Part shown: positions 2,352 to 17,358 of the stretch, in pieces
How positions within the stretch are numbered: position 1 is the stretch's first letter
Layout of the letters: every line of letters starts with the position of its first letter
IMG/VR virus record: IMGVR_UViG_3300044910_000908
Location: 17,068 to 81,067 of that record
Length of the DNA: 64,000 nt
Source of the DNA: a virus
Strand: one strand, 5' to 3'
The notes under the pieces: model-generated
Told to the model about the DNA's origin: nothing
The model's input: the letters and a program-made list of their open reading frames with translations, nothing else
Database searches by the model: none
Translations under genes and position numbers: made by a program

Positions 2352-2378
2352 AATTCTCCCATATTTTAATATTATTCT

Positions 2379-2407: not shown

Positions 2408-2496
2408 TAATTACATGTCACAGAATTACTTCATACAGTTCTAAACATATTCTCATCAATAATCTGGAATATGCATTTAAGTTCAAAGCGATTTTA

Positions 2497-3030: not shown

Positions 3031-3049
3031 TTTATATTTCCTCTGTTTA

Positions 3050-4885: not shown

Positions 4886-4935
4886 AAAATTAGAAGGTTT
4901 TTAATCCTTCTAATTTATTTATAAAAAATATTATA

Positions 4936-5436
4936 TCACATTTTTGAAGAATGTAAATAATTTAAAATATCAAATTTAATTTTTGTCATTTCCCAATCAC
5001 CTGTATGTAAAATACCATTTCCACCCGCTTTATCCCATTCTTTAATATTCGTTTCTGCATCATCAATTAAAATATCACCTTTTGTATTAATCCAATGCTT
5101 TTTATTTCTTCCGCCTAATACAGTATGAACTTGAATATCAAAAGATAAATTTAATTTAACCCATTCTTTTTTATCATCTACTGCAGATAATAATTGTTGA
5201 GTTGGCAATGGAATAGCTGTTAAAACAAAAATATCATATTCATTTTTAAAAGACCAAATATAATCAAAGAATTCTTTAGCTCCAGGTAATACATCTAAAT
5301 GCAAAAATAAATTAGGAACTAATTCTAAACTACTCCAAGAAGTATGCGGAGAATAAGGTTGTCCAGTATGTTCTTTTACAAATTTATGGAAATCAGCAAA
5401 ACATCCATCAAGATCTAATGCAATTCTTCGTTTCAT
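4936..5436 (-). CDS. 5'(3')-deoxyribonucleotidase, HAD superfamily
   Basis: DLDGCFADF motif I, VLTA, ILIDD motif IV. Confidence 0.8.
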   Translation of the reverse strand: MKRRIALDLDGCFADFHKFVKEHTGQPYSPHTSWSSLELVPNLFLHLDVLPGAKEFFDYIWSFKNEYDIFVLTAIPLPTQQLLSAVDDKKEWVKLNLSFDIQVHTVLGGRNKKHWINTKGDILIDDAETNIKEWDKAGGNGILHTGDWEMTKIKFDILNYLHSSKM

Positions 5437-5636
5437 TTCATTTGTTCCTCTAATTTTTTATTAATTTCAGCAGCATATTCATGATAATCTGAGTATGGCA
5501 AATAATATTCTATTACTTTTAAAAATGCAGGAATATATTCTAAATCTTTATCAGCATCTCCTTTATATAAAGACAATTGTGTTTTAATATCTTTTTTTAA
5601 ATTTTCAACTATAACACCATCAATATAATTCATCAT
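5433..5636 (-). CDS. Hypothetical protein
   Basis: 67 aa ORF with GGAG RBS, 4-nt overlap with the next gene. Confidence 0.55.
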   Translation of the reverse strand: MMNYIDGVIVENLKKDIKTQLSLYKGDADKDLEYIPAFLKVIEYYLPYSDYHEYAAEINKKLEEQMK

Positions 5637-5650
5637 AAATTCTCCTATTA

Positions 5651-6190
5651 TTAAGATAATAATCCATTAAGAGAAACACAACCATTTGGCAATACATAAG
5701 TATTTGATTGTGTTACTATTTCCCATGTTTGGTGCAAAGGTTTTATTACTTCTATTTTATCAACTTTTAAATAACTTTGTATAGTTTGAATAATTTCTTC
5801 TTGATTATTTCTGATATGAGTTAAATGAACTATTTCATCACCTTCAGAAAGATTTCTAATTTTAATGAAATCATCTTCTCTTGAGGGATAATGTGCAAGT
5901 AGTTTATGGTCTCCAGTGAAACCATATTCGGAATCGTCTTCAAATACAACTTTATAGATAGTAGTTAAACCATTATAAAAAACATGTTCAACTAATTCAT
6001 CACCATCTTCTCCAATTACATAAATTGGTTGAGGTAATTCATAAATGCGTTTAGATAATTCTGAAAATTGACAATTTTGAAATTCAAAATTTAATTCTCT
6101 AAATAATTGAACAATACTAATAGCTCTACTATCAGCCAAATTTAATTTATTACAACAATCATATAAAGCACTTGTTCCACTAGCTTGCAT
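5651..6190 (-). CDS. Stand-alone Hint (intein-like) domain protein
   Basis: Block B FTGDHKLL, LSEGDEI, block F TWEIVT, block G-like YVLPNGCVSLN. Confidence 0.7.
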   Translation of the reverse strand: MQASGTSALYDCCNKLNLADSRAISIVQLFRELNFEFQNCQFSELSKRIYELPQPIYVIGEDGDELVEHVFYNGLTTIYKVVFEDDSEYGFTGDHKLLAHYPSREDDFIKIRNLSEGDEIVHLTHIRNNQEEIIQTIQSYLKVDKIEVIKPLHQTWEIVTQSNTYVLPNGCVSLNGLLS

Positions 6191-6206
6191 AAGTATCCTC
6201 TAGTTA

Positions 6207-7256
6207 TTAAAGAAATTTGGAAAAATCAATATCAGAAATGTCATTTACAATTGAATTAGATAGATAACTACTAATTTCAGTTTCTTGAGGAGCAACTTGA
6301 ACATTACTAGAATTAAAATGTTTTTCAATCCATGGTAATGGATGACTAATTTTTGCATTTTCAGAAGATAAACCGAGAGTTTTTAATTGTTTTGGTAATA
6401 GATAACCATCAATATAAGAAGTCAAAATTTCCTCATTTAAACCAATAATAGAACCATCTTTAAATAAATGTTGTGCCCAAATAATTTCTTGTTCAGCAGC
6501 GGATTTGAAAATATTTTTAGCTTTTTCTCTATTATCTCCTATAATTTGAATAAATTCTGGGTCATCTTTAGGAAGTAATTTCAATGTATGCTGAACAAAT
6601 GCTAAATGTTGAATTTCATCTCTAGCGATTAATTTTACAATTTTTCCAGAACCTTCTACTTTAGCTCTTTCAACGAATGAAAATGTTGATGCAAATGACA
6701 CATAAAAACGAATTGCTTCTAATGCATTAGCCGCTATTAATGCTAGATATAAATTTTCCTTATTAGGATTATTCACCATTTGATCATAGACTTTCGTGAC
6801 ATCATTTGCACAATCAGCTATTTCTTTTATATTAGGCATGTCATCTATAACAACTTTAGGGTCATTATAAATTGCTCTCAAAATATAAGTATAAGACATT
6901 GAATGAATACTTTCCATGAAAGACCACGTTAATAAACAATTTTCCATGGATGGATCTGTACAATGTGGCAAAAATACTAACGCTGGAGCTCTTCCTTGAA
7001 TGCTATCTAACAAAATCTGTCTTTTTAGATTTTCAGTAAAAACAAATTGTTCAACATCAGTTAATGAATTAAATGATCTTTTTTCTTGGCTCATATCTAT
7101 TTCATTTGGGCGCCAGAAAAAACTTTGCATTTTTTCATTTAATTTATCTAAAATTTCATATCTTGTAATCTCATATCGAGAAATACCATGACCACATTCT
7201 CCAAAAAATAATTTATCTGGATGAACTGACATTGTAAAAACTGAATTATTTGGCAT
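6207..7256 (-). CDS. nrdB: Ribonucleotide reductase class Ia beta subunit
   Basis: FFWRPNEI, LLDSIQG, ESIHSMSY (radical Tyr), EAIRFY, RDEIQH, VAPQETE. Confidence 0.97.
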   Translation of the reverse strand: MPNNSVFTMSVHPDKLFFGECGHGISRYEITRYEILDKLNEKMQSFFWRPNEIDMSQEKRSFNSLTDVEQFVFTENLKRQILLDSIQGRAPALVFLPHCTDPSMENCLLTWSFMESIHSMSYTYILRAIYNDPKVVIDDMPNIKEIADCANDVTKVYDQMVNNPNKENLYLALIAANALEAIRFYVSFASTFSFVERAKVEGSGKIVKLIARDEIQHLAFVQHTLKLLPKDDPEFIQIIGDNREKAKNIFKSAAEQEIIWAQHLFKDGSIIGLNEEILTSYIDGYLLPKQLKTLGLSSENAKISHPLPWIEKHFNSSNVQVAPQETEISSYLSNSIVNDISDIDFSKFL

Positions 7257-7274
7257 ATTATTTTCTCCTTATTA

Positions 7275-9533
7275 TTAAACTACACAAGCACCTGATTTAC
7301 AACCACCTTCTTCAATATTATCAGAAGAACCATCATTAACTTGATTGTAATACATAGTACACATTCCCATTTTATATGCAAATAATAAATCCTCAATCAA
7401 TCTTGACATTTTAATTTCACCTTTAGAAGGGTCATACGAAGTGTTGCATGAAATAAATTGATCATTATATTTCTGAAATACTGCAGTAGTTTTCAAGTAA
7501 TCTTTACTATCAACATTCCACAATGTTTCATATAAATGATTTAATTTGTTATATTCAGGAACAACTTGTGGTAATACTCCATCTTTAGAACCTTTAATAC
7601 TAATTAAATCTCTAGGAGGTTCAATACCATTTGTCTCATTAGAAATTTGAGATGATGTTTCACTTGGAAAAATTGTTGATAATGTTGCATTTCTAATACC
7701 ATATTTTTTCAAATCTTCTTTTAATTCATCCCATGGCATTAATGGAGCATTAACTGGAATTTTATTTAAATCTCTCGGAACAATACCATCATGATATTTT
7801 GTTCTTAATTCAATAGAACCAAATTCTTTTGCTAATTGATTAGATGCTTGAATTAAATAAAAATTCTGTTTCTCAATCATTGTTTCAGTCGCAAGTAATG
7901 CTTCATCTGTACCCCATTGTAATCTTCCTTTTGCTAACCAATGAGCATAACCAATTAAACCAATGCCTAATGGACGACATAATTTAGTAGCTCTTTCAGC
8001 AGCATCAATTGGATATTCTTGATAATCTAATAAAGCATCTAAAGCTCTAACACCCATTTCACAACAATCTTTTAAAATTCTTTCTTCTTTTTCAGATAAA
8101 TTCTTACTAAATTTACCCCAATTAGTAGCTAATAATGTACATAAATTTAATAATGAATTACCATCTCCAAGCGGAGTTGTTCGCTGTCCAATTTCCGTAC
8201 ATAAATTAGTCATATAAACTGGTTCATAATAAGGTGTTTGATAATTGACATTATCAGCATTAAAAATATAAATACGTCCAGTTTCATATCTTTCATTCAT
8301 TAATTTTGTAAAGTATTCAAATGCAGGAATAGTTTTCTTTACAACTTTATTTGAGTTTTCATATTTTTCATATAATTCTTCAAATTTTTCTAAATCTGGA
8401 GAATAAAAAGCTTCATATAAATCTGGAACTTCTTCAGGGCTAAATAATGTAATATTTCCACCTGTGATTAATCTTTTATACATTGTTCCATTAAGAGCAA
8501 CAACATAATCTAAAGTTCTAATACGAGTTTCTTCAGTTCCTTTATTGTTTTTTAATTCAATTAATTTTTCAAATTCTAAATGCCATCCAGGATAATTAAT
8601 AGAAGCTGAAGCCGACCTAATTCCACCTTGCGATACTGCTCTTAAAGAAGAATTCATTAATTTTAAATAAGGAATAACACCAGTTGTAATAGCATCTCCT
8701 TGTCTAACTTGTTGTCCTTCAGCACGTAATCTTCCAATATTTAAACCAATACCAGCTTTTCTTGAAGCATAATCAATAATAGCTGCTGATGTAGCTTTAA
8801 TAGAATTTAAGCTATCACCACAATCCATTAATGTGCAAGAAGAAAATTGTTTTACATTAGTTCTTAATCCAGCCATAATAGGTGTAGGAAGAGAAATATA
8901 ATGTTGGCTAACCAAATCATAAAATTTCTTGATGTATCCCATACGAGTAGCAATTGGGTACGCGCCAAATAATAATGCTGGAACTAAAATATAAGGGAAT
9001 TGAAATGTTTCATATACATGTTTAGTTTTTCTATTTTGAACTAAATATTTTTTACGCATTTGTTCTGAACCTGCATAACGAAATAAATCATCTCTATTAT
9101 GGTCAATCATATCATTTAAAATATTAAATTCTTCTTCATTATAAAATTCTAATAATTCTTTAGTATAAACACCTAATGCCACATTTTTCTTAACAACATC
9201 ATATAAATGAGGTGGTGTATTAGAACCAAATGCTTCTTTACGAATAGATAACCAATTTAATCTAGCAGCAACATGATCATAATTTGGAGTATCTTCATTA
9301 ATTAAATCTGCAGATGCTTTAATTAAAGTTTGGTGAATTGAAGAAGTTTTAATATTTGGAACGAAATGTGGATTAGCTGTCATTTCAATTTGAGAAACAG
9401 ATACGCCTTTAATTGGTGGAAAAATATCATCTCCATTACATGCCCAATTAATCACTTGATGAATTTTAGAAAGATCTAATAGTTCTTTTGTTCCATTTCG
9501 TTTAGTAACAAATATATTACTGGTTTGAGTCAT
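7275..9533 (-). CDS. nrdA: Ribonucleotide reductase class Ia alpha subunit
   Basis: ATP cone VTKRNG, PTPIMAG, QFSSC, TNLCTEI, PSETSS, C-terminal CKSGAC; uninterrupted. Confidence 0.97.
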   Translation of the reverse strand: MTQTSNIFVTKRNGTKELLDLSKIHQVINWACNGDDIFPPIKGVSVSQIEMTANPHFVPNIKTSSIHQTLIKASADLINEDTPNYDHVAARLNWLSIRKEAFGSNTPPHLYDVVKKNVALGVYTKELLEFYNEEEFNILNDMIDHNRDDLFRYAGSEQMRKKYLVQNRKTKHVYETFQFPYILVPALLFGAYPIATRMGYIKKFYDLVSQHYISLPTPIMAGLRTNVKQFSSCTLMDCGDSLNSIKATSAAIIDYASRKAGIGLNIGRLRAEGQQVRQGDAITTGVIPYLKLMNSSLRAVSQGGIRSASASINYPGWHLEFEKLIELKNNKGTEETRIRTLDYVVALNGTMYKRLITGGNITLFSPEEVPDLYEAFYSPDLEKFEELYEKYENSNKVVKKTIPAFEYFTKLMNERYETGRIYIFNADNVNYQTPYYEPVYMTNLCTEIGQRTTPLGDGNSLLNLCTLLATNWGKFSKNLSEKEERILKDCCEMGVRALDALLDYQEYPIDAAERATKLCRPLGIGLIGYAHWLAKGRLQWGTDEALLATETMIEKQNFYLIQASNQLAKEFGSIELRTKYHDGIVPRDLNKIPVNAPLMPWDELKEDLKKYGIRNATLSTIFPSETSSQISNETNGIEPPRDLISIKGSKDGVLPQVVPEYNKLNHLYETLWNVDSKDYLKTTAVFQKYNDQFISCNTSYDPSKGEIKMSRLIEDLLFAYKMGMCTMYYNQVNDGSSDNIEEGGCKSGACVV

Positions 9534-9559
9534 ATAAATTCCTTATAATTAAATAATTT

Positions 9560-10864
9560 TTAAAATTGAATAATTTGCTTTTGTTTGTTAATATTACAAA
9601 ATTCAGCATCGTTTGTGATTTGCGAAATAGGAGCCATGGCTCTTTTTAAAGCGGTTGTTTTATTTGTTTTATTTCTTTCAAAAACATTAAATTGGCAACA
9701 ACTTATTTCTATACCAAAGGTAGTAAAACGACCTAATTCTGAAGCTTCTTTTAAATGGATTTCAGCTTGAGTATTTCCAGCTATTTCAAAAAAATCTTCT
9801 TGATGATTTCTAATAGCTATAATATATTTCATCATTGCTTCAGTATTAATTGGCATATCAGGAAATAGTTTTTTTAATGTTGCAGTAGCACCAGGACCAG
9901 CAACAACATAATCAGCATTTTCATCTAAATTTCCATGTGTTAAACTTTTGTCTTTATTTTGTAATTTTTTAAAATCATCATAATATTCAGCATCTATTAA
10001 TTCAGAACTACCAATTCCTGGCATCCTAGCTAAGTTTGAAGAAAAATGATATCCATAATAATTTCCAATTCCTCTTTCAAGAGTTAAAAAATTAAAAGAT
10101 TGTTCCATTGTTGGTTTATTCTTAAAAAATGGCACCCATTTTTTAGATAAATATTTGACCCAATGAATCATATCAGATGGACGCATTTTTCTTTCTTGGT
10201 GTTCTTTTAATAAATTTAATTCAGTGATTAATTTATTACTGTTATTAATATTTAGTATGTCAATAGATGATGGATTTTCTCTACAATAATTTCTAGCAGC
10301 TATTTGCAAACTTGTTCTTAATTCTGTTGTTCCCCATATTTTTTCTTTATTAGCAAAAGCTTTTTCTACATTAGACATTAATGTAAATTCATAATCCATA
10401 TCTTTTTCTAATAAATCAAAATTGATATATTTTGAATTAGTTGGAATTAAATAATTTAAATCTTCAGCAGTTCCTGTAATAATATCTAAAGTTCTTGCTG
10501 GTCCATAAAATTTTACAATTGCAGAATTTATTAGTTTATCCTCAAAACTAACATTATCTTCATAATATAAATGGGAATTTAACCAAATAATTTCATCATG
10601 AAATGATCTATTTGGATGGAAGTATGGAACAGGTTTATTATCAACAACAAAACCATATCCAAATCCTTTTTGATGTTTATATAATTTTGAAATATAATCT
10701 TCAAAAGTTTTAGCTTGCTGTTTATTTATCCTTACTTCCCATTCCCGCTTATTGAATTCTTTTATAAAATTTGCTAATTGTTTTTTTACTGTTTTATCTG
10801 CAAATGACAATATTTTTTCATCAGACATATTTTTAATATCGTTGTTAGAAAGTAATGATGCCAT
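9560..10864 (-). CDS. aGPT-PPlase / amino acid:DNA transferase-like DNA base-hypermodification enzyme
   Basis: YFHPNRSFHDE, HhH-like RGIGNYYGY, YVVAGPGA and C-terminal IEISCCQF resemble the glycosylase-fold aGPT-PPlase family. Confidence 0.65.
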   Translation of the reverse strand: MASLLSNNDIKNMSDEKILSFADKTVKKQLANFIKEFNKREWEVRINKQQAKTFEDYISKLYKHQKGFGYGFVVDNKPVPYFHPNRSFHDEIIWLNSHLYYEDNVSFEDKLINSAIVKFYGPARTLDIITGTAEDLNYLIPTNSKYINFDLLEKDMDYEFTLMSNVEKAFANKEKIWGTTELRTSLQIAARNYCRENPSSIDILNINNSNKLITELNLLKEHQERKMRPSDMIHWVKYLSKKWVPFFKNKPTMEQSFNFLTLERGIGNYYGYHFSSNLARMPGIGSSELIDAEYYDDFKKLQNKDKSLTHGNLDENADYVVAGPGATATLKKLFPDMPINTEAMMKYIIAIRNHQEDFFEIAGNTQAEIHLKEASELGRFTTFGIEISCCQFNVFERNKTNKTTALKRAMAPISQITNDAEFCNINKQKQIIQF

Positions 10865-11618
10865 TTATTTTTTTTCTCCGTTTCCAAATTCTAGGTAAAC
10901 TATTAAAACCTTTATGAACGAGTTCAAATTCTTCGTTTATTATTTGTTTTGCTAATCGTTGGGTTTGTCTACCAGTTAAAATAGTAGTATCATATTTATA
11001 TTTTTCAAAATGGCCATAACACGAAGGTGAACTAAAGCTTGCAGTTTCTATTAAATAGTTAGTTGACAAATCCATACAACTTTTTATAAAATCAAATGGG
11101 TCCTCAAAATGTTCAAAGGTTTCTAAACACAATACAACATCAAACTTTTCATCTTTTGGAAATTCATAAAAATTAATATTTTTATTATCAGAATGTAAAG
11201 AACACCATTTTTCACAACAAGAAATCTGATGGTCTACATTATTGAATGTATAAACTTGTTTAAAATTTGATTGCAATAATTTTTCAGTTGTAAATCCTAA
11301 ACCATTAAAAATATCAATAATAGAATATTCAGATAAATCAATATTATTTTTCTTAAAATAATTATTGAGTGCCCAAATACTATTATTTGAAGATACAAAA
11401 AAGCACCAAATACATTCTAATAAGTAATCTGTGGTAGAATAGATAGAAAAATCTGTTCTTTTAGAATTTACCCATAATTCACCTAATTTATCTGAATTTA
11501 TTTTTAATGCATTATAAAGTTCTTTTTTTGAATTAGAATTTAATAAAATTTCATTATCTTTTAATTCCGGAACACAAGCAATAATATTATCTATAAAATT
11601 TTTATGACTAAGCTTCAT
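10845..11618 (-). CDS. Class I SAM-dependent methyltransferase
   Basis: IIDIFNGLG motif I, FDVVLCLETFEHF. Confidence 0.8.
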   Translation of the reverse strand: MKLSHKNFIDNIIACVPELKDNEILLNSNSKKELYNALKINSDKLGELWVNSKRTDFSIYSTTDYLLECIWCFFVSSNNSIWALNNYFKKNNIDLSEYSIIDIFNGLGFTTEKLLQSNFKQVYTFNNVDHQISCCEKWCSLHSDNKNINFYEFPKDEKFDVVLCLETFEHFEDPFDFIKSCMDLSTNYLIETASFSSPSCYGHFEKYKYDTTILTGRQTQRLAKQIINEEFELVHKGFNSLPRIWKRRKKINGIITF

Positions 11619-12006
11619 GTCTTACATTTTCCTTCTCAGTTAAATTATGATCTAAATGTATTACATTAAGCCAAGAACCACAATTTTGCTCAATTATATT
11701 TTTTTGAATAGGGTCATCTTCAAAATGACAATTAATTTTAATTCCAATATTTTTCAATTTATTCAAAACTTGAGCTTTATGCATTCCAGAACTTTCTCTA
11801 GTTTTTTCATGAAATTGCAAATTGTTAAAAAATACTTTATTAAAAATATTTCTTTTTTCTAGCATTGAAATTGTTTCAACGTATTCTTCAAAAGACCTAC
11901 CAGTAATAATAATATCATTAGGACCTGGATAAACTCCTTCGATAGAGTTATTAATAAAAATAACTCCATCGATATCGTAACTATTAATAGGGGAATGATT
12001 AAACAT
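11608..12006 (-). CDS. Minimal HAD-family phosphatase
   Basis: YDIDGVI, ITGR, conserved Lys (HK), HFEDD. Confidence 0.8.
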   Translation of the reverse strand: MFNHSPINSYDIDGVIFINNSIEGVYPGPNDIIITGRSFEEYVETISMLEKRNIFNKVFFNNLQFHEKTRESSGMHKAQVLNKLKNIGIKINCHFEDDPIQKNIIEQNCGSWLNVIHLDHNLTEKENVRHEA

Positions 12007-13218
12007 TTATTCTCCTATCAATCTCAAATAATCCATTCCACCGCTATTATATTCATCCCATGCAAATTTAATTGCATCTTCAGGAGTTGTTTGTTTACTA
12101 GTAATATCTGTTAATTGACGATTAGCTAATGCTTCGCATTCTTTATAAGATAAATCATAAGTTAATTGTTTAGGCGGAGATTTTTGAGTAAACGCAGAAG
12201 GTCCTCTTAAACAACCAATAATTCCCATTTCTTTTGCAACTTTAATATATCTTAAAGCATCAATTACAACACCACTAGAATTTTCTGAATCTTGAACAGA
12301 TAATTTAACATCTACAGTAATTGGAGCATCTCCAAAACCTCTAAGATGTAAATTAAAGTAAGCAATTTTATTATCTTTTAAATAAGGAATAAAAGTTGAA
12401 GGACCAGCAAATAAAGCATCGTCATCAACAGGAATTCCTCTTAAATCATTTTGTGCTCTAATAACATTTTCTTTTGATACTTTTTTATGTTTTAATCTTG
12501 TTTGAACCATCATATTATTAAAATCGGTATTACCTCCAACGTTTAATTGTTGATGATAATCAACTATCATACCTCGACTAAATGCTAGTTCTTGTAACAT
12601 TTGAGATAAAATAGAAGCTCCAAATTGAGATTTCATATCAGAACCAATATAAGGAATGCCAGCACTAATAAATTTTTCTTCCCATTTAGGATGATTTAAT
12701 GTTAATACAGGAATACAATTCAAAAATGAAATTTTATGTTCAATACATTTTTCAGCCCACCATTCAGTTGCATTTTGAGAACCTACTGGCAAGTAATTGA
12801 TAATAATTTCAACGCCTGTTTCTTTTAGAATTTTATCAATATCACAAACATCTTCATTAGAAATTCTGAAACCCATTCTTTCTGGTTGAGTTTGCATATA
12901 ATCAGAAACACCGTCTAATACTGGACCCATATTAACAATTGGGCCATCAGGAACATCTTTACAAAATACTCTAGCGCAATTAGGTTGAGCAAAAATAGCT
13001 TCGCCTACTGGACGACCAACTTTTCTTCTATCAACATCAAAAGCTGCTACTACTTGAATATCAGCAGGATGATAACCTCCAATTCTGTCAAACATAACAC
13101 CGGGAATAGAATTTCCTTCAGCATCTTCATCATGATCTTTATAATATTCAAGGCCTTGATAAAGAGAAGAAAAACAATTACCAACACCAACTACACAAAC
13201 TTTAATTTTTTTTGACAT
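12007..13218 (-). CDS. ino1: myo-inositol-1-phosphate synthase
   Basis: VGVGNCFSSLYQG NAD-binding motif, NYLPVGS, DMKSQFGA, QLNVGGNTDF, DSENS, KSPP. Confidence 0.95.
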   Translation of the reverse strand: MSKKIKVCVVGVGNCFSSLYQGLEYYKDHDEDAEGNSIPGVMFDRIGGYHPADIQVVAAFDVDRRKVGRPVGEAIFAQPNCARVFCKDVPDGPIVNMGPVLDGVSDYMQTQPERMGFRISNEDVCDIDKILKETGVEIIINYLPVGSQNATEWWAEKCIEHKISFLNCIPVLTLNHPKWEEKFISAGIPYIGSDMKSQFGASILSQMLQELAFSRGMIVDYHQQLNVGGNTDFNNMMVQTRLKHKKVSKENVIRAQNDLRGIPVDDDALFAGPSTFIPYLKDNKIAYFNLHLRGFGDAPITVDVKLSVQDSENSSGVVIDALRYIKVAKEMGIIGCLRGPSAFTQKSPPKQLTYDLSYKECEALANRQLTDITSKQTTPEDAIKFAWDEYNSGGMDYLRLIGE

Positions 13219-13256
13219 ATATAATCCTCTTTTTGTTTAAAACATTATTTACTTTT

Positions 13257-14294
13257 TTAAAATGTTACAATTTTATTAAATTGCTTAATTTCTGGTATAT
13301 TAGGTTTATTATTCCAATAATCCCATCTATGATATAGAGGTGCTAAATGAACATTTTTTGGACGTTCCATATAAGTGTTCATATAATCTATAGGTGATAT
13401 TATAAACATTTCTTGTGTTCTTGTAAACAGTTTCCAATTATTTTTTTCACATAATTGTTTTAATTTATTGTTAAAATATTCCATGATAATAGTTCTTTCT
13501 TTTTGAGAACCATAAAAAGGAGTATTTTCAAAAAATCCAGTTTTTGGAATTCTTCTAGATTCATCTTCAATAGGTAATAATTCAACTAATTCAATATTTT
13601 GAATATTTAAATCTAATAATTGGCGTTCATATTCTAATAATATTTCATCTATTTCTTTTTTTGGATCAGAATTTCTAAGTATATGATGTCTTATATCTAT
13701 ATTACCCCAATAACAAGTAATATAATTTAATTGAGTAATATCTATATTATTATCTTCTATTTCTTTTTTAATTGTTTTTCTTAAAACACCTTTTAAAGTT
13801 CTTCCATCTTTTCTCACAACCATTGCATTTGAATAAAATGTTGAAAAACTATGTGAATCACCAATTATCAATTTATCAGTATTAGGATTTAAATAATATT
13901 CTTTAACTTCTAAACATTTTTTTGAAATTGCTTCCCAATCTATAGCTTTCCAATAATCATCTGCTGTTTTTCTACTTGAACATAGAAATCCATAATCAGG
14001 CATTGGCATATCTAATGATATTAATTTTGCTGAAGTTGTTCCAATTCTTTCATAAAATTTAGCGTTTTCTATTGTAGCACCACCAAATAAATTTAAAGAA
14101 CCTTTAAATTCCATTCCATGATATAAATAAATTTCGTCATAATTATTCCAATCTTCATTATTATGTAAGACTTCAACTTGTTTATTCAATTCTTTAGATA
14201 ATTGACAAGCTCTTAAATGAGCCCATGCATTTTTATGAGAATATTTTGAATTAGTTAATTTTCCACTTACTAAATCTATAGCAATTTTAGTCAT
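13257..14294 (-). CDS. Fusion of a T4 beta-glucosyltransferase-like N-terminal domain and an SGNH/GDSL-like domain
   Basis: MTKIAI, DWNNYDEIYL, SLNLFGG and KLISLD parallel the T4 BGT N-domain as recalled; C-half has IGDSH, GNID and a late His (NVHL). Confidence 0.55.
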   Translation of the reverse strand: MTKIAIDLVSGKLTNSKYSHKNAWAHLRACQLSKELNKQVEVLHNNEDWNNYDEIYLYHGMEFKGSLNLFGGATIENAKFYERIGTTSAKLISLDMPMPDYGFLCSSRKTADDYWKAIDWEAISKKCLEVKEYYLNPNTDKLIIGDSHSFSTFYSNAMVVRKDGRTLKGVLRKTIKKEIEDNNIDITQLNYITCYWGNIDIRHHILRNSDPKKEIDEILLEYERQLLDLNIQNIELVELLPIEDESRRIPKTGFFENTPFYGSQKERTIIMEYFNNKLKQLCEKNNWKLFTRTQEMFIISPIDYMNTYMERPKNVHLAPLYHRWDYWNNKPNIPEIKQFNKIVTF

Positions 14295-14661
14295 TTAATT
14301 ATATCCAATTTTCATGATCATTGAATTGATCTATAAACAATTTTCCAATTTCAGAATAAAAACCTTCTGGGTCTTCCTTTCGTTTATCATCCAATAAAGT
14401 TTTATTATCAATAAATCCAGTAAATCGAATAATACTATCTCCTGTTGATGCATTTGCTGCATCATAAATTCCTGTTAATTCAATCATTTGGTTTAATCTC
14501 CAATTTCTCGTGCTTCTCTAATTGCTTTAAGCAAATCTTTAGCAAATTTTATATATTGTTCGCCAGAAATTGTTGTTTCATTAATAATTGAAGGTCCATA
14601 AATTTTACATAAAAATTGAGTAATATCAATATTATCAACATCTACACCTTCTTCATAATTC

Positions 14662-15426
14662 TTAATCACTGCTATCATAATTATCTCCTGTATATAATCT
14701 AACCATTGACATATTTTGTTCTTTTGAGTATTTTAAAAAAGCACTTAATATACTTTCATTAGGAGCTATTTTACAAGAAGTTCCCACAATCCCACCTTTC
14801 CATGAATTCTTTTTTGGTCCAACTTCTTTGGTATAAGTAATATCTACTTCTCGTTTAACAAAATCTTTTTTGAAATATTGTAACCAACACATTATACCAG
14901 AACCATGAGTCCAAACTCTTTCTTCCAAATAACATGTCACTATATTATCTTCACCATCATAATCTTTAAATTCTATTTTTACAGGTTTAATAGATTGTTT
15001 GATAATTTCTTTAGCACCAAAATCCCATTTTGCTCTTTTTTTAAAACAACTAAAGTCATTATAAATAATTCCTGCTAAAGAACCATCACCATGATATAAT
15101 GACCATTTTGCAAAATGCATTCGTTTCCATGGAATATCAAAAACTTTGCATTGACTTTGACCAAAGCCTTTTTCATCTTGAATTCCATAATAAATTAAAA
15201 AACTATCATCACATGTTGTAATATAATAACTACGAGGACATATTCTACCATAATACTTATTTGAATAACTATTCAATTCTTTTTCAATATGAGCTGGAAT
15301 TATCCAATTTGGAATTTTTAAAAAGTATTCTTTATTATGCCCATATTGAAAGAATATTTTTGCATATTCTCGTTCTTCAGTTCGAGATTTAATACCTATT
15401 CTAAATTCTTTCATTGAAATGACCAA
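14662..15426 (-). CDS. Hypothetical protein
   Basis: 254 aa ORF overlapping its neighbours. Confidence 0.6.
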   Translation of the reverse strand: MVISMKEFRIGIKSRTEEREYAKIFFQYGHNKEYFLKIPNWIIPAHIEKELNSYSNKYYGRICPRSYYITTCDDSFLIYYGIQDEKGFGQSQCKVFDIPWKRMHFAKWSLYHGDGSLAGIIYNDFSCFKKRAKWDFGAKEIIKQSIKPVKIEFKDYDGEDNIVTCYLEERVWTHGSGIMCWLQYFKKDFVKREVDITYTKEVGPKKNSWKGGIVGTSCKIAPNESILSAFLKYSKEQNMSMVRLYTGDNYDSSD

Positions 15427-15737
15427 GAAATATTTAATTCAGCATCTTGGTCATTTTCATAATTAACATCTGGAATTGAAAATGAACGTGCAGCTGTGTG
15501 TTCAGCTTTATAACCATTCTCTTTTAAAGTATTAATAATGCTAATTAAAGCTGAAGATGTCATTTCCCCAGTTATAACGTGTATATATGAATATTTTCCT
15601 TCTGTAGCATATTCCTGAATTTTATCTTCAATAACAGATAAATGTCTTTGAATGATTTGTTGTTCTTTATTTTGAATATGTTTATCGGCCAAATCCCTAG
15701 CAACAGTAGCTTTTAGCTCAAAAGGTTTAGTTATCAT
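15411..15737 (-). CDS. Hypothetical protein
   Basis: 108 aa ORF coupled to the upstream gene. Confidence 0.55.
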   Translation of the reverse strand: MITKPFELKATVARDLADKHIQNKEQQIIQRHLSVIEDKIQEYATEGKYSYIHVITGEMTSSALISIINTLKENGYKAEHTAARSFSIPDVNYENDQDAELNISWSFQ

Positions 15738-16063
15738 ATTTCAACATTCTCAACATTAATAGAACTCCATTTTTTTAATTTCTGGAATTTTGCATATTTA
15801 GCTTCATGTAAATCTTTATTAGATAATTCGTATTCTTGTTGAAGAAGAGAAATCATTGCTAAAGCGTCACCTAATTCTTCAACCAAATGTTGTTTATTTG
15901 TTTTACTAGGTTGATTAAAAGGATGATAAGAATCAATGCCAAATCGCTTGATTTTAGAAATCACCATAATACATTCAGCAAATTCTTCTTGAGCAATATT
16001 TAAGATTTCATTATCCATATAGTATATCCTCTTTAAATTATTTAAAAATAAATTATATACCAA
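15734..16063 (-). CDS. MazG-like nucleotide pyrophosphohydrolase
   Basis: QEEFAEC and EELGDAL acidic helices; true start probably the MDNE Met downstream of the early promoter. Confidence 0.7.
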   Translation of the reverse strand: MVYNLFLNNLKRIYYMDNEILNIAQEEFAECIMVISKIKRFGIDSYHPFNQPSKTNKQHLVEELGDALAMISLLQQEYELSNKDLHEAKYAKFQKLKKWSSINVENVEI

Positions 16064-16088
16064 TAAATGAATTTTGTAAATATTTTTA

Positions 16089-16484
16089 TTATAATAATTT
16101 TAAATGGCCTGTAATTTGATCAATTATCTCAGATGGTGCTGGACCTATAGCAAAACAAGTATATGTAGGTTCATTAAATTCAGTTAATCCTAAATCTTGA
16201 ATTAATGATTTGGGAACTAATGGATAATTATCTTCAGTAAATTTATACAATTCTAATAGTTCTTCTAATGAATCTACACCAACACATATCTTTTTATAAT
16301 TTGTTTCCATCCAAATTCTAACTTCGTTTGGGCATAATATTGTATAAACATTACTTTCAGAATTATCAAATTTTCCACAATTTAAAATTGCTTTTAAAGA
16401 AGCATGAGCTCCTTGAGCAATCATTTTACCTTTGCGCATATTTAAATCTTTACGCATTACAATCACTTGCTTAATAGAACTCAT
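16089..16484 (-). CDS. pth2: Peptidyl-tRNA hydrolase, Pth2 family
   Basis: KQVIVMRKDLNMRKGKMIAQGAHA, KKI, DLGLTE, TCFAIGP, ITGHLKLL. Confidence 0.92.
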   Translation of the reverse strand: MSSIKQVIVMRKDLNMRKGKMIAQGAHASLKAILNCGKFDNSESNVYTILCPNEVRIWMETNYKKICVGVDSLEELLELYKFTEDNYPLVPKSLIQDLGLTEFNEPTYTCFAIGPAPSEIIDQITGHLKLL

Positions 16485-16723
16485 TAATCATATCTCCAAA
16501 AATTATTATTTTTTATATTTATTTTTGAAAATATCATTAAAAATAGAAGTAAAATCAGATTTGTTTGGAGATGCTGAGTGGTAAAAATCATCTTTTATTT
16601 GAACATCTTCATTATCACAAGAAGAACAAATATATTTTAATCCTTTAATTAAGGTGGCATCCCTAATTTCACCTACATACTTATCGCATACAGAACAATA
16701 AATTTTTCGTGGGGTTGCAGACA

Positions 16724-17071
16724 TTATCTATATCCTCTTGTTGTATAATGTTCACCATATTGAACTCTTGATGCTGCACCTTCAACAACAAAATGTCCAT
16801 AACTTCCCATACATTGTTCATACAAATCTCTAAACACATATTCAGAAGCATAACCTTGATAATTAGTTTTTACTTCAGATTGAATAAAAGCTTGTTTATA
16901 ACATGATTCATAAGCTTTTCTCCAAGCTTGATAATTTACTCCAGAAGAGGAATTATGAGGATTAGGATACCAACCTGTATTATTTCCATATCTCCATTCA
17001 GGACCATACATATTTTCAGCAAAAACATTATTAACTGAAAATAATAAAATTGCTATTATTAGAGTTTTCAT
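16724..17071 (-). CDS. Secreted hypothetical protein
   Basis: Signal peptide MKTLIIAILLFSVNNVFA. Confidence 0.55.
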   Translation of the reverse strand: MKTLIIAILLFSVNNVFAENMYGPEWRYGNNTGWYPNPHNSSSGVNYQAWRKAYESCYKQAFIQSEVKTNYQGYASEYVFRDLYEQCMGSYGHFVVEGAASRVQYGEHYTTRGYR

Positions 17072-17358
17072 CTTCTTAATATCCTCAAATTATTGAATTA
17101 CTACTTGATTATCATGAACAAGAATTTGTGTTGGAAAACTTTCTACTAATTCGTATTGACCTAAATGATCATAACTAGAACAAATAGTAACCAATTCTAA
17201 TTTATTTAAATCAACACCAGCCATTTGTAATTGTAGCAAAGTGTTTAACATATCTTGAGCGTTCATCTGATATTCCTTTTTATCTTTTTCTGAATATGAT
17301 ATTATTATATTCCAATTTTTAAAAAAGTAAATAAGAAAATTAGAACTAGTTATCCTTT

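What the first reader, a model, noticed from the sequence alone, without database searches (positions are those of the whole stretch)
13257..14294. T4 beta-glucosyltransferase acceptor domain apparently fused to an SGNH domain
Seen: N-terminal MTKIAI...DWNNYDEIYL...SLNLFGG...KLISLD, then GDSH, GNID and a late His. Known (from recall): T4 BGT begins MKIAI, has DVNDYDRLIVVNSSINFFGG and a catalytic Asp in YYLFTD, while its C-domain binds UDP-glucose; SGNH domains act as esterases or O-acyltransferases (OatA, PatB, AlgX). Inference: the nucleotide-sugar donor domain has been replaced by an acyl-transfer domain, making a possible DNA-directed O-acyltransferase for a hydroxymethyl base or its inositol adduct.
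Basis: partly seen in the sequence, partly recalled or inferred. Interest (0 to 1): 0.72.

Follow-up and report, generated by a model that had tools for sequence, protein, structure and literature searches.

The report
Half-glucosyltransferase, half-SGNH phage DNA modifier
A T4-like phage gene joins the DNA-facing half of T4 beta-glucosyltransferase to an esterase/acyltransferase-type domain, and it probably works on newly made phage DNA to build a base modification that nobody has yet described.

Summary
The ORF is real: 13257-14294, minus strand, 345 aa. Residues 2-95 are remotely but specifically homologous to the N-terminal lobe of T4 beta-glucosyltransferase (BGT): hhalign 95.6-96.1%, against 1.0% or less for 19 controls. 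Residues about 136-325 carry near-invariant GDSH, GNID, E310 and H316. Their only recurrent Pfam matches are three SGNH/GDSL families, and these are weak.

This is not a one-off chimera. It is a large viral family (2314 clusters; at least 592 IMG/VR loci) with no Pfam model, and two literature searches found no description.

It is the constant gene of two cassette types. Type A, as here: inositol-1-phosphate synthase, HAD, methyltransferase and a HMUDK_hel-type protein. Type B: a PLP enzyme like phage M6 gp52 plus unknowns. In Aeromonas phages 44RR/31 it is fused to the HMUDK_hel protein. Those phages have gp42 and gp56 but no glucosyltransferases.

It ends in the same C-terminal peptide as this phage's DNA polymerase, and the two tails change together across lineages.

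Best reading: a replisome-tethered enzyme doing Ser/His ester chemistry on a 5-hydroxymethyl pyrimidine in DNA, perhaps as the activating step. The chemistry is inferred. The structure-comparison tools were off.

This scan had already noted the same architecture on other DNA.

The parts
13257..14294 (-). Whole ORF (345 aa plus stop), called TGT in this report. Member of PHROG 13881; no Pfam family.
   Evidence: ORF; no Pfam hit; phrog_13881 E 1.5e-70. AF2 model mean pLDDT 92.2, pTM 0.88.
13890..14294 (-). N lobe, residues 1-135. Rossmann-like, with strands 4-8, 40-42, 54-58 and 90-94. Remote homologue of the N-terminal lobe of T4 beta-glucosyltransferase.
   Evidence: hhalign of residues 2-95 against BGT 1-98: 95.6%, 96.1%. 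Controls 1.0% or less. Secondary structure; coordinates.
14235..14240 (-). S19-H20, at the start of helix 1 of the N lobe. Near-invariant; candidate acceptor-side catalytic or binding pair.
   Evidence: S19 114/125 and H20 118/125. Lies opposite the BGT S20-E22 loop in the hhalign alignments. The catalytic role is inferred.
14010..14018 (-). S93-L94-D95 after strand 4. Aligns with the BGT LFT-D100 segment in one of the profile alignments.
   Evidence: A1 against A7 extends to SLDMPMPD / TDIRLPF. D95 is D in only 63/125 and E in 13/125.
13320..13889 (-). C lobe, residues 136-325. SGNH-like alpha/beta domain with five predicted parallel strands: 141-145, 158-161, 191-195, 233-237 and 288-290.
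   Evidence: Secondary structure. Recurrent weak Pfam hits to SGNH-clan families in 9-11 of 125 members. ESM Atlas leads: features 0.91 to a Lipase_GDSL cluster, TM 0.48/0.69 to an SGNH esterase cluster.
13851..13862 (-). GDSH (145-148), SGNH block I-like, directly after the first strand of the C lobe. S147 is the candidate nucleophile.
   Evidence: G145 125/125, D146 124, S147 124 (+1 T), H148 125. The only stretch aligned with E. coli TesA GDSLS, at Prob 1.0%.
13695..13706 (-). GNID (197-200), SGNH block III-like, followed by the near-invariant R202-H203-H204.
   Evidence: G197 122, N198 100, D200 125, R202 123, H203 116, H204 122 of 125.
13347..13367 (-). E310 to H316 (ME-x-P-x-S-V-H). Candidate catalytic His with a Glu six residues upstream; no Asp at His-3.
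   Evidence: E310 124/125, S314 113, H316 123. Coordinates.
13260..13277 (-). C-terminal hexapeptide NKIVTF, the same type of tail as the phage's polymerase. Candidate sliding-clamp docking peptide.
   Evidence: In the 81-kb record, 5 of 100 ORFs of 100 aa or more end in [ILVM][ILVM][QTSEN]F: RNase H-like KSIIQF, PolB C-half NSIVQF, HEL KQIIQF, methyltransferase NGIITF and this ORF. Tails co-vary across genomes.
12007..13218 (-). Next gene downstream: myo-inositol-1-phosphate synthase, 403 aa, 38 nt after the target.
   Evidence: Pfam Inos-1-P_synth E 3.3e-21. Defines cassette type A, which 47 of the 81 TGT loci show. Gap.
11608..12006 (-). 132-aa protein whose only match is PHROG 415 'polynucleotide kinase'. 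I read it from recall as HAD/PNK-phosphatase-like and call it HAD; no call shows HAD membership. It abuts the synthase gene.
   Evidence: phrog_415 E 1.6e-8; no Pfam hit. Present in 24 of 25 type A loci with 5 kb or more downstream.
10845..11618 (-). SAM methyltransferase, 257 aa, ending NGIITF. It occupies the slot held by an FkbM methyltransferase in relatives.
   Evidence: Pfam Methyltransf_11 E 7.9e-6. Tail. FkbM in 20 of 25 type A loci.
9560..10864 (-). HEL: 434-aa HMUDK_hel-family protein with no Walker A by my reading of the translation. Ends KQIIQF. Fused to the target's family in Aeromonas phages.
   Evidence: Pfam HMUDK_hel 28.9 bits (cut-off 25). phrog_17781 positions 370-788 of 795, while the target covers 10-335. 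Translation; Atlas; fusions.

Best explanation
The gene encodes a two-lobe enzyme that works on phage DNA at or just behind the replication fork.

The N lobe descends from the same stock as the acceptor (DNA, 5-hydroxymethylcytosine) lobe of T4 beta-glucosyltransferase. It presents the 5-CH2OH group of a flipped-out hydroxymethyl pyrimidine. The C lobe has replaced the UDP-sugar lobe with an SGNH-like Ser/His domain (S147, H316, E310, D200). The C-terminal NKIVTF peptide docks the enzyme on the same partner as the polymerase tail, most likely the sliding clamp.

Proposed chemistry (inferred): S147 picks up an acyl group from a small ester or thioester donor and passes it to the hydroxymethyl oxygen, with H20 helping to deprotonate it.

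The enzyme is the one constant gene beside variable 'supply' genes (inositol-phosphate synthase plus phosphatase here; a PLP enzyme elsewhere). It is also fused to a HMUDK_hel protein, much as the P-loop kinase domain accompanies that domain in 5-hmdU DNA kinases. For these reasons I think the ester most likely serves as a leaving group. That would be the job the kinase does in thymidine hypermodification, after which the HMUDK_hel/ADDT-like partner installs the final group (inositol-derived here, then O-methylated).

Shown: the architecture, its conservation, the gene linkage, the fusions, and the shared, co-varying tails.
Inferred: DNA as the substrate, hmC as the acceptor, acyl chemistry, and the activating role.
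For: Architecture:
- BGT N-lobe homology at 95.6-96.1% hhalign probability, against 1.0% or less for 19 controls.
- A BGT HMM searched against 1611 sequences (452 of them family members) gave 213 hits at E<=10, of which 171 are family members.
- SGNH-clan families are the only other recurrent Pfam hits. The motif residues are near-invariant.
- The AF2 model is confident, and its C lobe is a five-strand alpha/beta domain with GDSH right after strand 1.

DNA-directed:
- The tail is shared with the PolB C-half and the RNase H-like protein: 5 of 100 ORFs in the record.
- Across 81 loci the family ends in F/Y within the last two residues in 78/81, HEL in 31/37 and PolC in 6/6. The small-molecule enzymes do not: MIPS 9/50, HAD 3/47, PLP enzyme 0/20.
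- Tails co-vary within genomes. In the 8 related loci with a complete PolC, PolC ends ASALF or ATALF and TGT ends ALF; TGT/HEL pairs are NTLF/SCLF x10, EDFF/DSFF x4 and LLEF/LLEF x2.
- T4 gp43 ends SLDFLFG. That this tail binds the gp45 clamp is established knowledge, from recall.

Linkage:
- 25 of 25 type A loci with enough flank have HEL, and 24 of 25 have HAD.
- The operon is tightly coupled, with gaps of 38, 0, -11 and -20 nt.
- Fusions exist: TGT+HMUDK_hel (44RR/31 ORF233c, P0372) and FkbM+HMUDK_hel+TGT (P0121, P0370, P0371).
- HEL belongs to the HMUDK_hel family, with Atlas neighbours that carry the kinase domain or ADDT.
- The type B PLP enzyme is homologous to M6 gp52 of the 5-NedU pathway (Table 1 of PMC8989533, passages seen).

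Acceptor base:
- Aeromonas phage 31 carries gp42 and gp56. Phages 44RR, 31 and 25 lack glucosyltransferase genes (PMC2993671, passages seen).
- A 167-aa ORF in the window matches the T4 gp42 region that I recall as holding its catalytic Cys (E 6e-8).
- True BGT-family genes sit inside three TGT cassettes.
Against: - SGNH membership is weak. The query itself has no Pfam hit, and only 9-11 of 125 members give weak hits.
- hhalign against E. coli TesA aligns only 12 residues, at 1.0%.
- Profile searches of PDB sequences found neither BGT nor any SGNH protein.
- The canonical block V Asp (His-3) is missing, and the block III Asn is displaced by one position.
- No gene for an acyl donor (acyl-CoA ligase, carrier protein) was seen in either cassette type.
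- The many invariant Arg/His residues (R202, H203, H204, R207, R247, R267) would fit a phosphate-bearing ligand as well as DNA.
- D95, the proposed BGT D100 equivalent, is not well conserved.
- The record (81 kb, CheckV 23% complete) has no PF00303-detectable hydroxymethylase and no recognisable clamp gene. The acceptor base and the clamp partner are therefore inferred from relatives.
- Type B cassettes have no HEL (0 of 21), so the 'activate, then HEL substitutes' scheme cannot be general as stated.
- Ser-His geometry and superposition on BGT were not testable.
Confidence: 0.45

Rival explanations
1. Same architecture and DNA substrate, but the SGNH-like lobe is not an acyl-transfer module. 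It binds a phosphate-bearing or polyol donor (inositol phosphate, an activated inositol, or an amino-acid derivative). The enzyme then transfers that group, or a phosphoryl group, straight onto the hydroxymethyl oxygen. On this reading it is the bond-forming transferase, or a new kind of base kinase.
For: - Near-invariant basic and His residues line the C lobe: R161 95, R202 123, H203 116, H204 122, R207 120, R247 125, R267 125 of 125.
- No P-loop 5-hmdU kinase domain was found in the cassettes, although HMUDK_hel and M6 gp52-like proteins are present.
- In the fusions the enzyme sits beside HMUDK_hel, as the kinase domain does in an Atlas kinase cluster.
- In type B it is the only cassette protein with a polymerase-like tail.
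- The SGNH motifs deviate from canon.
Against: - G145 and H148 are invariant and D146 and S147 nearly so (124/125). With H316 and the Pfam SGNH hits, this points to Ser/His ester chemistry.
- From general knowledge, I know of no SGNH-fold enzyme that does phosphoryl or polyol transfer.
- The same invariant residues occur in type A and type B cassettes, which supply chemically different small molecules. That argues against the C lobe binding those molecules.
Confidence: 0.2
2. A late-acting decorating O-acyltransferase. It adds an acetyl or other acyl group to the adduct already on the base (inositol, sugar or amino-acid derived), in the way that I recall PatB, OatA and AlgX acylate sugars.
For: - SGNH-type motifs.
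- From recall, the known SGNH O-acyltransferases act on sugar hydroxyls.
- The cassette makes a polyol.
Against: - The enzyme is constant while the adduct-supplying genes differ completely between type A and type B.
- Its N lobe is homologous to the BGT lobe that handles the bare hydroxymethyl base.
- It is the first gene of the operon and is fused to the base-recognition-type HMUDK_hel protein.
Confidence: 0.15
3. A hydrolase rather than a transferase. It would be an esterase that removes a protecting or activating ester from a DNA-bound intermediate, or from a small-molecule precursor.
For: From general knowledge, most SGNH proteins are hydrolases. The motif set is compatible with this.
Against: A BGT-type acceptor lobe, a polymerase-like tail and fusion to HMUDK_hel suggest group transfer onto DNA. 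No partner that would first make an ester was identified in the cassettes.
Confidence: 0.1
4. Not DNA-directed. The enzyme would modify a host envelope polysaccharide, a lipid or a virion glycan, and the resemblance to BGT would be generic Rossmann-fold likeness.
For: - From recall, SGNH enzymes of phages are known as O-antigen deacetylases.
- From recall, FkbM methyltransferases and inositol point to glycan or lipid chemistry.
- Aeromonas phage 31 has a solute symporter next door.
Against: - 19 control profiles, several of them Rossmann-like, score 1.0% or less against 95-96% for BGT.
- The tail is shared and co-varies with the polymerase.
- The gene sits among replication and nucleotide-metabolism genes, next to NTP pyrophosphatases.
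- It is fused to a HMUDK_hel domain.
- I noticed no signal peptide or membrane segment when reading the translation; I ran no predictor.
Confidence: 0.05

Closest known systems
T4 beta-glucosyltransferase (Pfam PF09198 T4-Gluco-transf; GT-B fold)
   Same: The N-terminal ~95 residues align with BGT 1-98 (MKIAI strand, xYDxI strand, NxFGG loop, strand 4). hhalign gives 95.6-96.1%. Both are encoded by T4-like phages. In relatives the gene co-occurs with gp42/gp56.
   Different: - There is no detectable UDP-glucose lobe. The BGT invariants GGSFR.G.R and RVWE have no counterpart.
- The C lobe is SGNH-like instead.
- The protein carries a polymerase-type C-terminal tail, which T4 BGT (ending KKAIDL) lacks.
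- BGT D100 has only a poorly conserved counterpart.
- True BGT-family genes co-exist with it in three cassettes, so it is a paralogous offshoot and not an orthologue.
SGNH/GDSL hydrolases and O-acyltransferases (TesA; PatB, OatA and AlgX from recall)
   Same: The order of motifs matches: GDS after strand 1, a Gly/Thr loop, G-N-x-D after strand 3 and a C-terminal His. The predicted fold is five-stranded alpha/beta. Weak hits to Lipase_GDSL, Lipase_GDSL_2 and SGNH occur in 9-11 of 125 members.
   Different: - It is below every Pfam threshold.
- There is no Asp at His-3; E310 lies at His-6.
- The block III Asn is shifted.
- Extra invariant residues are present: H148, R202-H203-H204, E243, R247 and R267.
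- It is welded to a DNA-glucosyltransferase-type lobe, and by my reading of the translation it has no signal peptide.
Thymidine hypermodification pathways: 5-hmdU DNA kinase plus amino acid:DNA transferase plus PLP or radical-SAM enzymes (phages M6, ViI, SP10, PhiW-14)
   Same: Both involve post-replicative modification of a hydroxymethyl pyrimidine. A HMUDK_hel-family protein is a neighbour or fusion partner. A homologue of M6 gp52 (PLP) sits in type B cassettes. The logic of 'activate, then substitute' is taken from PMC8989533 (passages seen).
   Different: No P-loop kinase domain and no recognisable ADDT/aGPT-Pplase was found in the cassettes. The constant enzyme is this BGT-N/SGNH protein. 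The supply genes make inositol phosphate rather than use amino acids (type A). The base is probably hmC rather than hmU, judging from gp42 in relatives.
Arabinosyl-5-hydroxycytosine system of RB69 and DLP3
   Same: It is another case of a gp42-homologue-positive T4-like phage that lacks T4 glucosyltransferases and turned out to make a different hypermodification. The cassette likewise combines precursor-supply enzymes with DNA-acting transferases (PMC13326640: abstract and passages seen).
   Different: That system uses ordinary GT-B arabinosyltransferases and UDP-arabinose. It has no SGNH-like enzyme (0 occurrences of 'SGNH' in that paper), no HMUDK_hel protein and no inositol synthase.
C-terminal clamp-binding peptides of T4/RB69 gp43 (and gp33, gp55)
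   Same: A short hydrophobic-aromatic C-terminal tail is shared with the phage's own polymerase and changes together with it. Some family members end in a PIP-box-like QSSLNSFFE.
   Different: Here the tail is carried by base-modifying enzymes (this ORF, HEL, and the methyltransferase of this phage). Binding to a clamp is not shown, and no clamp gene was recognisable in the 81-kb record.

Membership tests
T4 beta-glucosyltransferase family (PF09198) | Scores above the Pfam gathering threshold for T4-Gluco-transf | tested here: not met
   The query has no hit at E<=1. Only 4 of 125 family members give weak hits, best E 0.0024. For comparison, a true BGT-like ORF in locus L074 scores 30.6 bits against a cut-off of 27.
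T4 beta-glucosyltransferase family (PF09198) | N-terminal acceptor lobe homologous to BGT residues 1-100 | tested here: met
   hhalign 95.6% (E 1.3e-8) and 96.1% (E 3.6e-9). 19 controls score 1.0% or less. Structural superposition was not possible.
T4 beta-glucosyltransferase family (PF09198) | C-terminal UDP-glucose-binding Rossmann lobe with the conserved Arg/Glu set | tested here: not met
   Alignments to full-length BGT profiles end at BGT residue 98-106. The BGT invariants R191, G193, R195, R269 and E272 have no aligned counterpart.
T4 beta-glucosyltransferase family (PF09198) | Catalytic Asp after strand 4 (BGT D100; its role as catalytic base is from recall) | tested here: inconclusive
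   D95 aligns with D100 in A1 against A7, but A2 against A7 stops before it. D95 is D in 63 and E in 13 of 125.
SGNH/GDSL hydrolase superfamily | Block I GDS with a nucleophilic Ser right after strand 1 | tested here: met
   GDSH at 145-148 follows strand 141-145. G 125, D 124, S 124 of 125.
SGNH/GDSL hydrolase superfamily | Block II Gly and block III GxND (oxyanion Gly and Asn) | tested here: inconclusive
   T166 122, G169 106. G197-N198-I199-D200 has D 125/125, but the Asn lies one position earlier than in GxND (N198 100/125).
SGNH/GDSL hydrolase superfamily | Block V DxxH (catalytic His with Asp at His-3) | tested here: not met
   H316 is 123/125, but position 313 is R/Q/K/G. The nearest invariant acid is E310, at His-6.
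SGNH/GDSL hydrolase superfamily | Significant sequence or profile match to SGNH families | tested here: inconclusive
   Lipase_GDSL 11, Lipase_GDSL_2 9 (best E 2.1e-4) and SGNH 9 of 125 members, all weak. TesA hhalign 1.0%. PDB profile searches gave 0 relevant hits. Atlas leads only.
SGNH/GDSL hydrolase superfamily | Ser-His(-acid) geometry in the three-dimensional structure | not testable with these tools
5-hmdU DNA kinase / amino acid:DNA transferase hypermodification systems | P-loop 5-hmdU DNA kinase domain and an ADDT (aGPT-Pplase) transferase in the cluster | tested here: not met
   HEL has only the HMUDK_hel match, and I saw no Walker A in its translation. The type B unknowns c12 and c20 have no Pfam hit at E<=10 and no hhalign match to M6 gp51. 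HEL against M6 gp51 gives 0.1%.
5-hmdU DNA kinase / amino acid:DNA transferase hypermodification systems | HMUDK_hel domain protein linked to the modifying enzyme | tested here: met
   Pfam 28.9 bits against a cut-off of 25. Present in 25 of 25 type A loci. Fusions.
Sliding-clamp clients with a C-terminal docking peptide | C-terminal peptide of the same type as the cognate polymerase's, co-varying with it | tested here: met
Sliding-clamp clients with a C-terminal docking peptide | Physical binding to the clamp | not tested

The most novel reading that the evidence does not exclude
This enzyme family is the functional replacement for the 5-hydroxymethyl-pyrimidine DNA kinase. It would activate hmC (or hmU) in nascent DNA by O-acylation instead of phosphorylation, while riding on the sliding clamp. 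The HMUDK_hel/ADDT-like partner would then displace the ester with myo-inositol made by the phage's own synthase, and the product would be O-methylated. The result would be the first cyclitol-modified DNA base. The same activating enzyme would feed an amino-acid branch in type B phages. The pathway would also explain what the gp42-positive, glucosyltransferase-negative Aeromonas phages 44RR, 31 and 25 do with their hmC.
Probability: 0.2. Interest if true: 0.92.

Novelty: new variant of a known kind. Interest (0 to 1): 0.78.

Why it matters
[quoted passage not shown] RB69 has since been explained (PMC13326640, abstract seen). This family, fused to a HMUDK_hel protein in 44RR/31, is a concrete candidate for the Aeromonas phages. 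It can be tested in cultured phages.
- **Abundance.** The family is very common in environmental T4-like phages: 2314 clusters at 90% identity, and at least 592 IMG/VR loci. It has no Pfam family, and two searches found no paper on it.
- **A new design for DNA-base modifying enzymes.** It keeps a glucosyltransferase acceptor lobe and swaps in a different catalytic lobe. Linkage to a phage-encoded inositol-phosphate synthase points to a DNA modification chemistry not yet seen.
- **Coupling to replication.** The polymerase-type tails suggest that base hypermodification is physically tied to the replisome.
- **Practical relevance.** New hypermodified bases and their enzymes matter for resistance to restriction and CRISPR, and for DNA-labelling tools, much as T4 BGT is used for hmC mapping.

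Tried and rejected
**Structural comparison.** Model coordinates are not exposed.

**Sequence-only links to solved structures.** Profile searches of PDB sequences with A1, A2 and the C-lobe profile A8 gave nothing relevant: 0 hits, 3 chance hits and 0 hits.

**SGNH link by other routes.**
- hhalign against single-sequence E. coli TesA aligned only the GDS block, at 1.0%.
- A profile search with the C lobe alone was swamped by the family itself (2314 hits, best 120 listed, none with a Pfam domain). It gave no bridge to annotated SGNH proteins.
- I tried to collect diverse SGNH proteins through the genome search. That failed because loci of other tools cannot serve as a centre.

**HEL as an aGPT-Pplase/ADDT transferase** (a lead from earlier notes). 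Pfam shows only HMUDK_hel. hhalign against M6 gp51 gave 0.1%. The Atlas lists ADDT only among lower-ranked neighbour clusters. I kept 'HMUDK_hel family, possibly ADDT-related'.

**Type B unknowns c12 and c20 as kinase, ADDT, HEL or MIPS analogues.** No Pfam hit at E<=10, no PHROG, no PDB hit, and no hhalign match to HEL, MIPS or M6 gp51.

**Clamp partner.** PF09116 found nothing in the record, and nothing in the 14 control genomes either, so that search is uninformative. T4 gp45 BLASTP against the two ORFs flanking the clamp-loader genes was negative.

**Hydroxymethylase in the record.** PF00303 was negative. Only a 167-aa TS-like ORF was found, and the ORF next to it does not match gp42.

**Promoter and terminator scan of 9000-16500.** No more sites than in shuffles.

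**Literature.** No paper holds 'SGNH' with 'DNA hypermodification', or 'beta-glucosyltransferase' with 'SGNH' and 'phage'. A search for inositol with phage DNA hypermodification gave only papers where inositol appears in the names of homologues. Searches on 44RR2.8t with 'modified base' and on the synthase with 'phage genome' gave nothing useful. The Iyer et al. 2013 paper that defined HMUDK and aGPT-Pplase is not held, and what I say of it is second-hand through PMC8989533. The role of BGT Asp100 is from recall; one search found no held paper on it. Supplementary files were not opened.

Full report
**1. What is there**

One search lists a single 345-aa ORF at 13257-14294 on the minus strand. 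The window is AT-rich, about 28% G+C. It belongs to a T4-like phage: it encodes the C-terminal half of a family-B polymerase, NrdA and NrdB, and UvsW-, UvsX- and gp32-like proteins. The window is part of an 81-kb IMG/VR record that CheckV rates 23% complete.

The ORF has no Pfam family. It belongs to PHROG 13881 (E 1.5e-70), and it also matches positions 10-335 of the 795-position PHROG 17781.

**2. A large, conserved family, not a one-off chimera**

- A word-indexed search found 132 full-length relatives, none with a Pfam domain.
- An exhaustive HMMER search of 1.84 billion representatives found 402 at E<=0.001.
- A profile of the C lobe alone found 2314 clusters at 90% identity.

Both lobes are present in nearly all full-length members. 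Conservation over 125 diverse members:
- C lobe: G145 125/125, D146 124, S147 124, H148 125, T166 122, G197 122, D200 125, R202 123, H204 122, R247 125, R267 125, E310 124, H316 123.
- N lobe: S19 114, H20 118, N68 116, G72 115.

An AlphaFold2 model built on 45 sequences is confident, with mean pLDDT 92.2 and pTM 0.88. It shows two alpha/beta lobes and a disordered tail.

**3. The N lobe**

I fetched T4 b-gt from NC_000866 and seven other annotated phage BGTs at 31-61% identity, and aligned them as A7.

| Comparison | Probability | E-value |
|---|---|---|
| Family (125 seqs) vs T4 BGT alone | 73.6% | 2.9e-5 |
| Family vs 8 BGTs | 95.6% | 1.3e-8 |
| Family vs 11 BGT-family sequences | 96.1% | 3.6e-9 |

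In each case the match covers query residues 2-95 against BGT 1-98.

Controls with the same family profile: T4 alpha-glucosyltransferase 0.8%, E. coli TesA 1.0%, and 17 unrelated profiles built from neighbouring genes, several of them Rossmann-like, at 0.8% or less.

A BGT HMM searched against 1611 sequences (452 family members plus neighbours) returned 213 hits at E<=10, and 171 of them are family members. Four of 125 members also touch Pfam T4-Gluco-transf weakly.

Results against: BLASTP of the single pair is not significant (E 0.089). Profile-versus-sequence searches of the PDB do not find BGT.

The alignment never extends into the UDP-glucose lobe of BGT. With the shallower family profile A1 it runs on to SLDMPMPD / TDIRLPF and puts D95 opposite BGT D100. 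But D95 is D in only 63 and E in 13 of 125 members. H20 is far better conserved.

**4. The C lobe**

The motifs GDSH, a T/G loop, GNID and a late His follow the order of SGNH blocks I, II, III and V. GDSH sits right after the first strand of a five-strand alpha/beta domain.

In a Pfam scan of 125 members at E<=1, only four families were hit by more than one member: Lipase_GDSL (11), Lipase_GDSL_2 (9, best E 2.1e-4), SGNH PF19040 (9) and T4-Gluco-transf (4). The ESM Atlas gives leads in the same direction.

The link is weak, however:
- hhalign against TesA aligns only 12 residues.
- PDB profile searches are empty.
- There is no Asp at His-3.
- The block III Asn is shifted by one position.
- Several extra invariant Arg/His residues are unusual for SGNH proteins.

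I rate 'SGNH-like fold with a Ser/His centre' as probable, not proven.

**5. Gene context**

I called ORFs in 80 IMG/VR loci plus the window and clustered them. All cassette genes lie on one strand. Of 81 loci, 51 have at least 5 kb downstream of the gene.

- **Type A (25 loci).** The gene, then inositol-1-phosphate synthase, HAD (24/25), an FkbM methyltransferase (20/25) and a HMUDK_hel protein (25/25).
- **Type B (21 loci).** The gene, then an unknown 405-aa protein, sometimes an unknown 368-aa protein (9/21), and a PLP enzyme (19/21). HEL and the synthase are absent (0/21).
- **Other (5 loci).** Four have synthase-HAD-HEL upstream of the gene, and one has HEL only.

Both types run on into an NTP-pyrophosphatase-like gene, the polymerase N-half and NrdB/NrdA. 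A small DUF6378 gene lies just upstream in 45 of 77 loci.

The window is type A. Gaps between its genes are 38, 0, -11 and -20 nt. A different class of methyltransferase (Methyltransf_11) fills the FkbM slot.

The type B PLP enzyme is homologous to M6 gp52, the PLP enzyme of the 5-NedU thymidine hypermodification pathway. hhalign gives 31.6% and E 5e-4 over 195 columns, with shared PFP....YD.KAW and FWN.G motifs. Its role comes from Table 1 of PMC8989533 (passages seen).

**6. Fusions**

- The target covers positions 10-335 and HEL positions 370-788 of PHROG 17781.
- Aeromonas phage 31 ORF233c (795 aa) is that fusion. So is 44RR ORF233c (P0141).
- P0372 is TGT plus HMUDK_hel. P0121, P0370 and P0371 are FkbM plus HMUDK_hel plus TGT.

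HEL has no Walker A by my reading of its translation. It matches Pfam HMUDK_hel above threshold. In the Atlas it resembles HMUDK_hel clusters over nearly its whole length. One such cluster also carries the 5-hmdU kinase domain (TM 0.62), and clusters with ADDT appear lower in the list.

**7. Tails**

In the 81-kb record, 5 of 100 ORFs of 100 aa or more end in [ILVM][ILVM][QTSEN]F. They are the RNase H-like protein, the PolB C-half, HEL, the methyltransferase and the target. My rough estimate from residue frequencies is about 0.1 expected by chance; this is my own arithmetic, not a tool result.

Across the loci, the share of proteins ending in F or Y within the last two residues is:
- Target 78/81, HEL 31/37, PolC 6/6.
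- MIPS 9/50, HAD 3/47, FkbM 1/30, c12 5/27, PLP enzyme 0/20.
- NrdB also ends in LF(D) (30/30), which I recall as its NrdA-binding tail. A terminal F alone is therefore not specific.

The tails change together within genomes:
- In all 8 related loci with a complete PolC, PolC ends ASALF or ATALF and the target ends ALF. In the window, PolC ends SIVQF and the target IVTF.
- Target/HEL pairs are NTLF/SCLF (10), NSLF/NALF (4), EDFF/DSFF (4) and LLEF/LLEF (2).

Some members end in a PIP-box-like QSSLNSFFE. T4 gp43 ends SLDFLFG. That this peptide docks on gp45 is established knowledge, from recall. One BGT-like ORF inside a cassette (L012) also ends NNLLEF.

**8. Which base?**

- Aeromonas phage 31 has an annotated gp42 dCMP hydroxymethylase, a gp56 dCTPase and a split gp43. 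It has no inositol-phosphate synthase. A sodium:solute symporter sits directly upstream of the fused gene.
- Petrov et al. 2010 state that 44RR, 31 and 25 have genes 42 and 56 but lack glucosyltransferase genes. For such phages, naming RB69 and JS98, they say it was unknown whether other modifications of Hm-dCMP exist (PMC2993671, passages seen).
- In the window, a 167-aa ORF (37082-37585) matches PHROG 160 thymidylate synthase (E 7e-10) and the T4 gp42 region that I recall as holding its catalytic Cys (E 6e-8). A MazG-like NTP pyrophosphatase lies at 15734-16063.
- Three cassettes also hold true BGT-family genes.

Together these point to a hydroxymethyl pyrimidine, probably hmC, as the substrate. 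The incomplete record has no full hydroxymethylase detectable with PF00303.

**9. How it most likely works**

*Shown:* the architecture, its conservation, the cassette linkage, the fusions, and the shared, co-varying tails.

*Inferred:*
- The enzyme is tethered to the replisome, most likely to the clamp.
- It binds a flipped hydroxymethyl pyrimidine with its BGT-like lobe.
- It uses S147/H316 to esterify the hydroxymethyl oxygen.

Three observations make me favour an activating role, in which the ester is a leaving group for substitution by the cassette-specific nucleophile. It is the one constant enzyme beside variable supply genes. It sits beside HMUDK_hel, as the kinase domain does. And the cassettes contain downstream-type enzymes (HMUDK_hel, an M6 gp52-like PLP enzyme) but no kinase.

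Alternatives are direct transfer of a phosphate-bearing or polyol donor, late decoration of the adduct, or hydrolysis.

Weak points:
- No donor-supplying gene is evident.
- Type B cassettes lack HEL.
- SGNH membership is weak.
- No geometry could be checked.

**10. Comparison and novelty**

The protein is not a member of the BGT family: the donor lobe and the Pfam threshold both fail. It is not a canonical SGNH protein either: block V fails. It works like a hybrid of the two. It sits in a pathway whose logic resembles thymidine hypermodification, but with a different core enzyme.

Two full-text searches found no paper describing such an enzyme. Earlier notes of this scan describe the same architecture, and the clamp-type tails, on other genomes. 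I checked both points independently here and I agree.

**Verdict:** a real, widespread, undescribed variant of phage DNA-base modifying enzymes. The chemistry is open, and it is directly testable in cultured Aeromonas phages.

Noticed in passing
window 14662-15426 (-): A 254-aa ORF two small ORFs upstream of the target matches Pfam Acb3 (CBASS inhibitor) at E 3.4e-34, 119 bits.
   Followed up: no
window 37082-37585 (-): A 167-aa ORF with a thymidylate-synthase-type core. It matches PHROG 160 (E 7e-10) and the T4 gp42 region that I recall as holding its catalytic Cys (E 6e-8). It is much shorter than gp42 (246 aa) and is invisible to PF00303. The upstream ORF 37736-38245 does not match gp42. 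It could be a truncated, split or minimal C5-pyrimidine-modifying enzyme.
   Followed up: partly
window 15734-16063 (-); related loci, cluster 1 (DUF6378) and cluster 6: NTP-pyrophosphatase-like genes flank the cassettes. The window has a MazG-like ORF (phrog_4856, E 6.6e-21). A DUF6378 gene lies just upstream of the target in 45 of 77 loci. An NTP-PPase/dUTPase-like 155-aa gene lies between the cassette and the polymerase N-half. This suggests that a canonical dNTP is removed.
   Followed up: partly
window 10845-11618 (-) compared with loci L045:3404-4441 and L074:3353-4375: The slot between HAD and HEL is filled by non-orthologous enzymes in different phages. Here it is a Methyltransf_11 enzyme with a polymerase-type tail. 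In 20 of 25 type A loci it is an FkbM methyltransferase without the tail. In L045 a true BGT-family glycosyltransferase fills this slot, and in L074 one sits there next to FkbM.
   Followed up: partly
L001 6390-7913 (Aeromonas phage 31 ORF234c): A sodium:solute symporter (Pfam SSF, E 7e-53) sits directly upstream of the fused TGT-HEL gene. This phage has no inositol-phosphate synthase. It may import the precursor that other phages synthesise.
   Followed up: partly
window 1146-2351 (-); related loci, cluster 5: The family-B DNA polymerase is split. Only the C-terminal half is in the window. In relatives the N-terminal half (exonuclease plus the start of the polymerase domain) lies after the cassette. 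Aeromonas phage 31 is annotated with gp43 and gp43-B.
   Followed up: no
window 26200-27297 (-): A 365-aa protein with a C-terminal PNK/zeta-toxin-type P-loop kinase domain (AAA_33, E 4.7e-19) and an unknown N-terminal 200 aa. I did not test whether it could be a DNA-base kinase.
   Followed up: no
L012:8031-9236 (+): A 401-aa BGT-like ORF (weak Pfam T4-Gluco-transf hit, 17.6 bits; BGT HMM E 1.1e-6) ends in NNLLEF. This resembles the LLEF-type tails of TGT and HEL seen in two other loci.
   Followed up: no
L002 (record bases 1-17100, left of the window): This stretch encodes an NAD-dependent DNA ligase, a Thg1-like tRNA-His guanylyltransferase homologue, a Cpn10 (GroES) fusion-length protein, the gp44 and gp62 clamp-loader subunits, and an RNase H-like 5'-3' exonuclease ending KSIIQF. 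The 329-aa ORF in the position where T4 has gene 45 has no family hit.
   Followed up: partly
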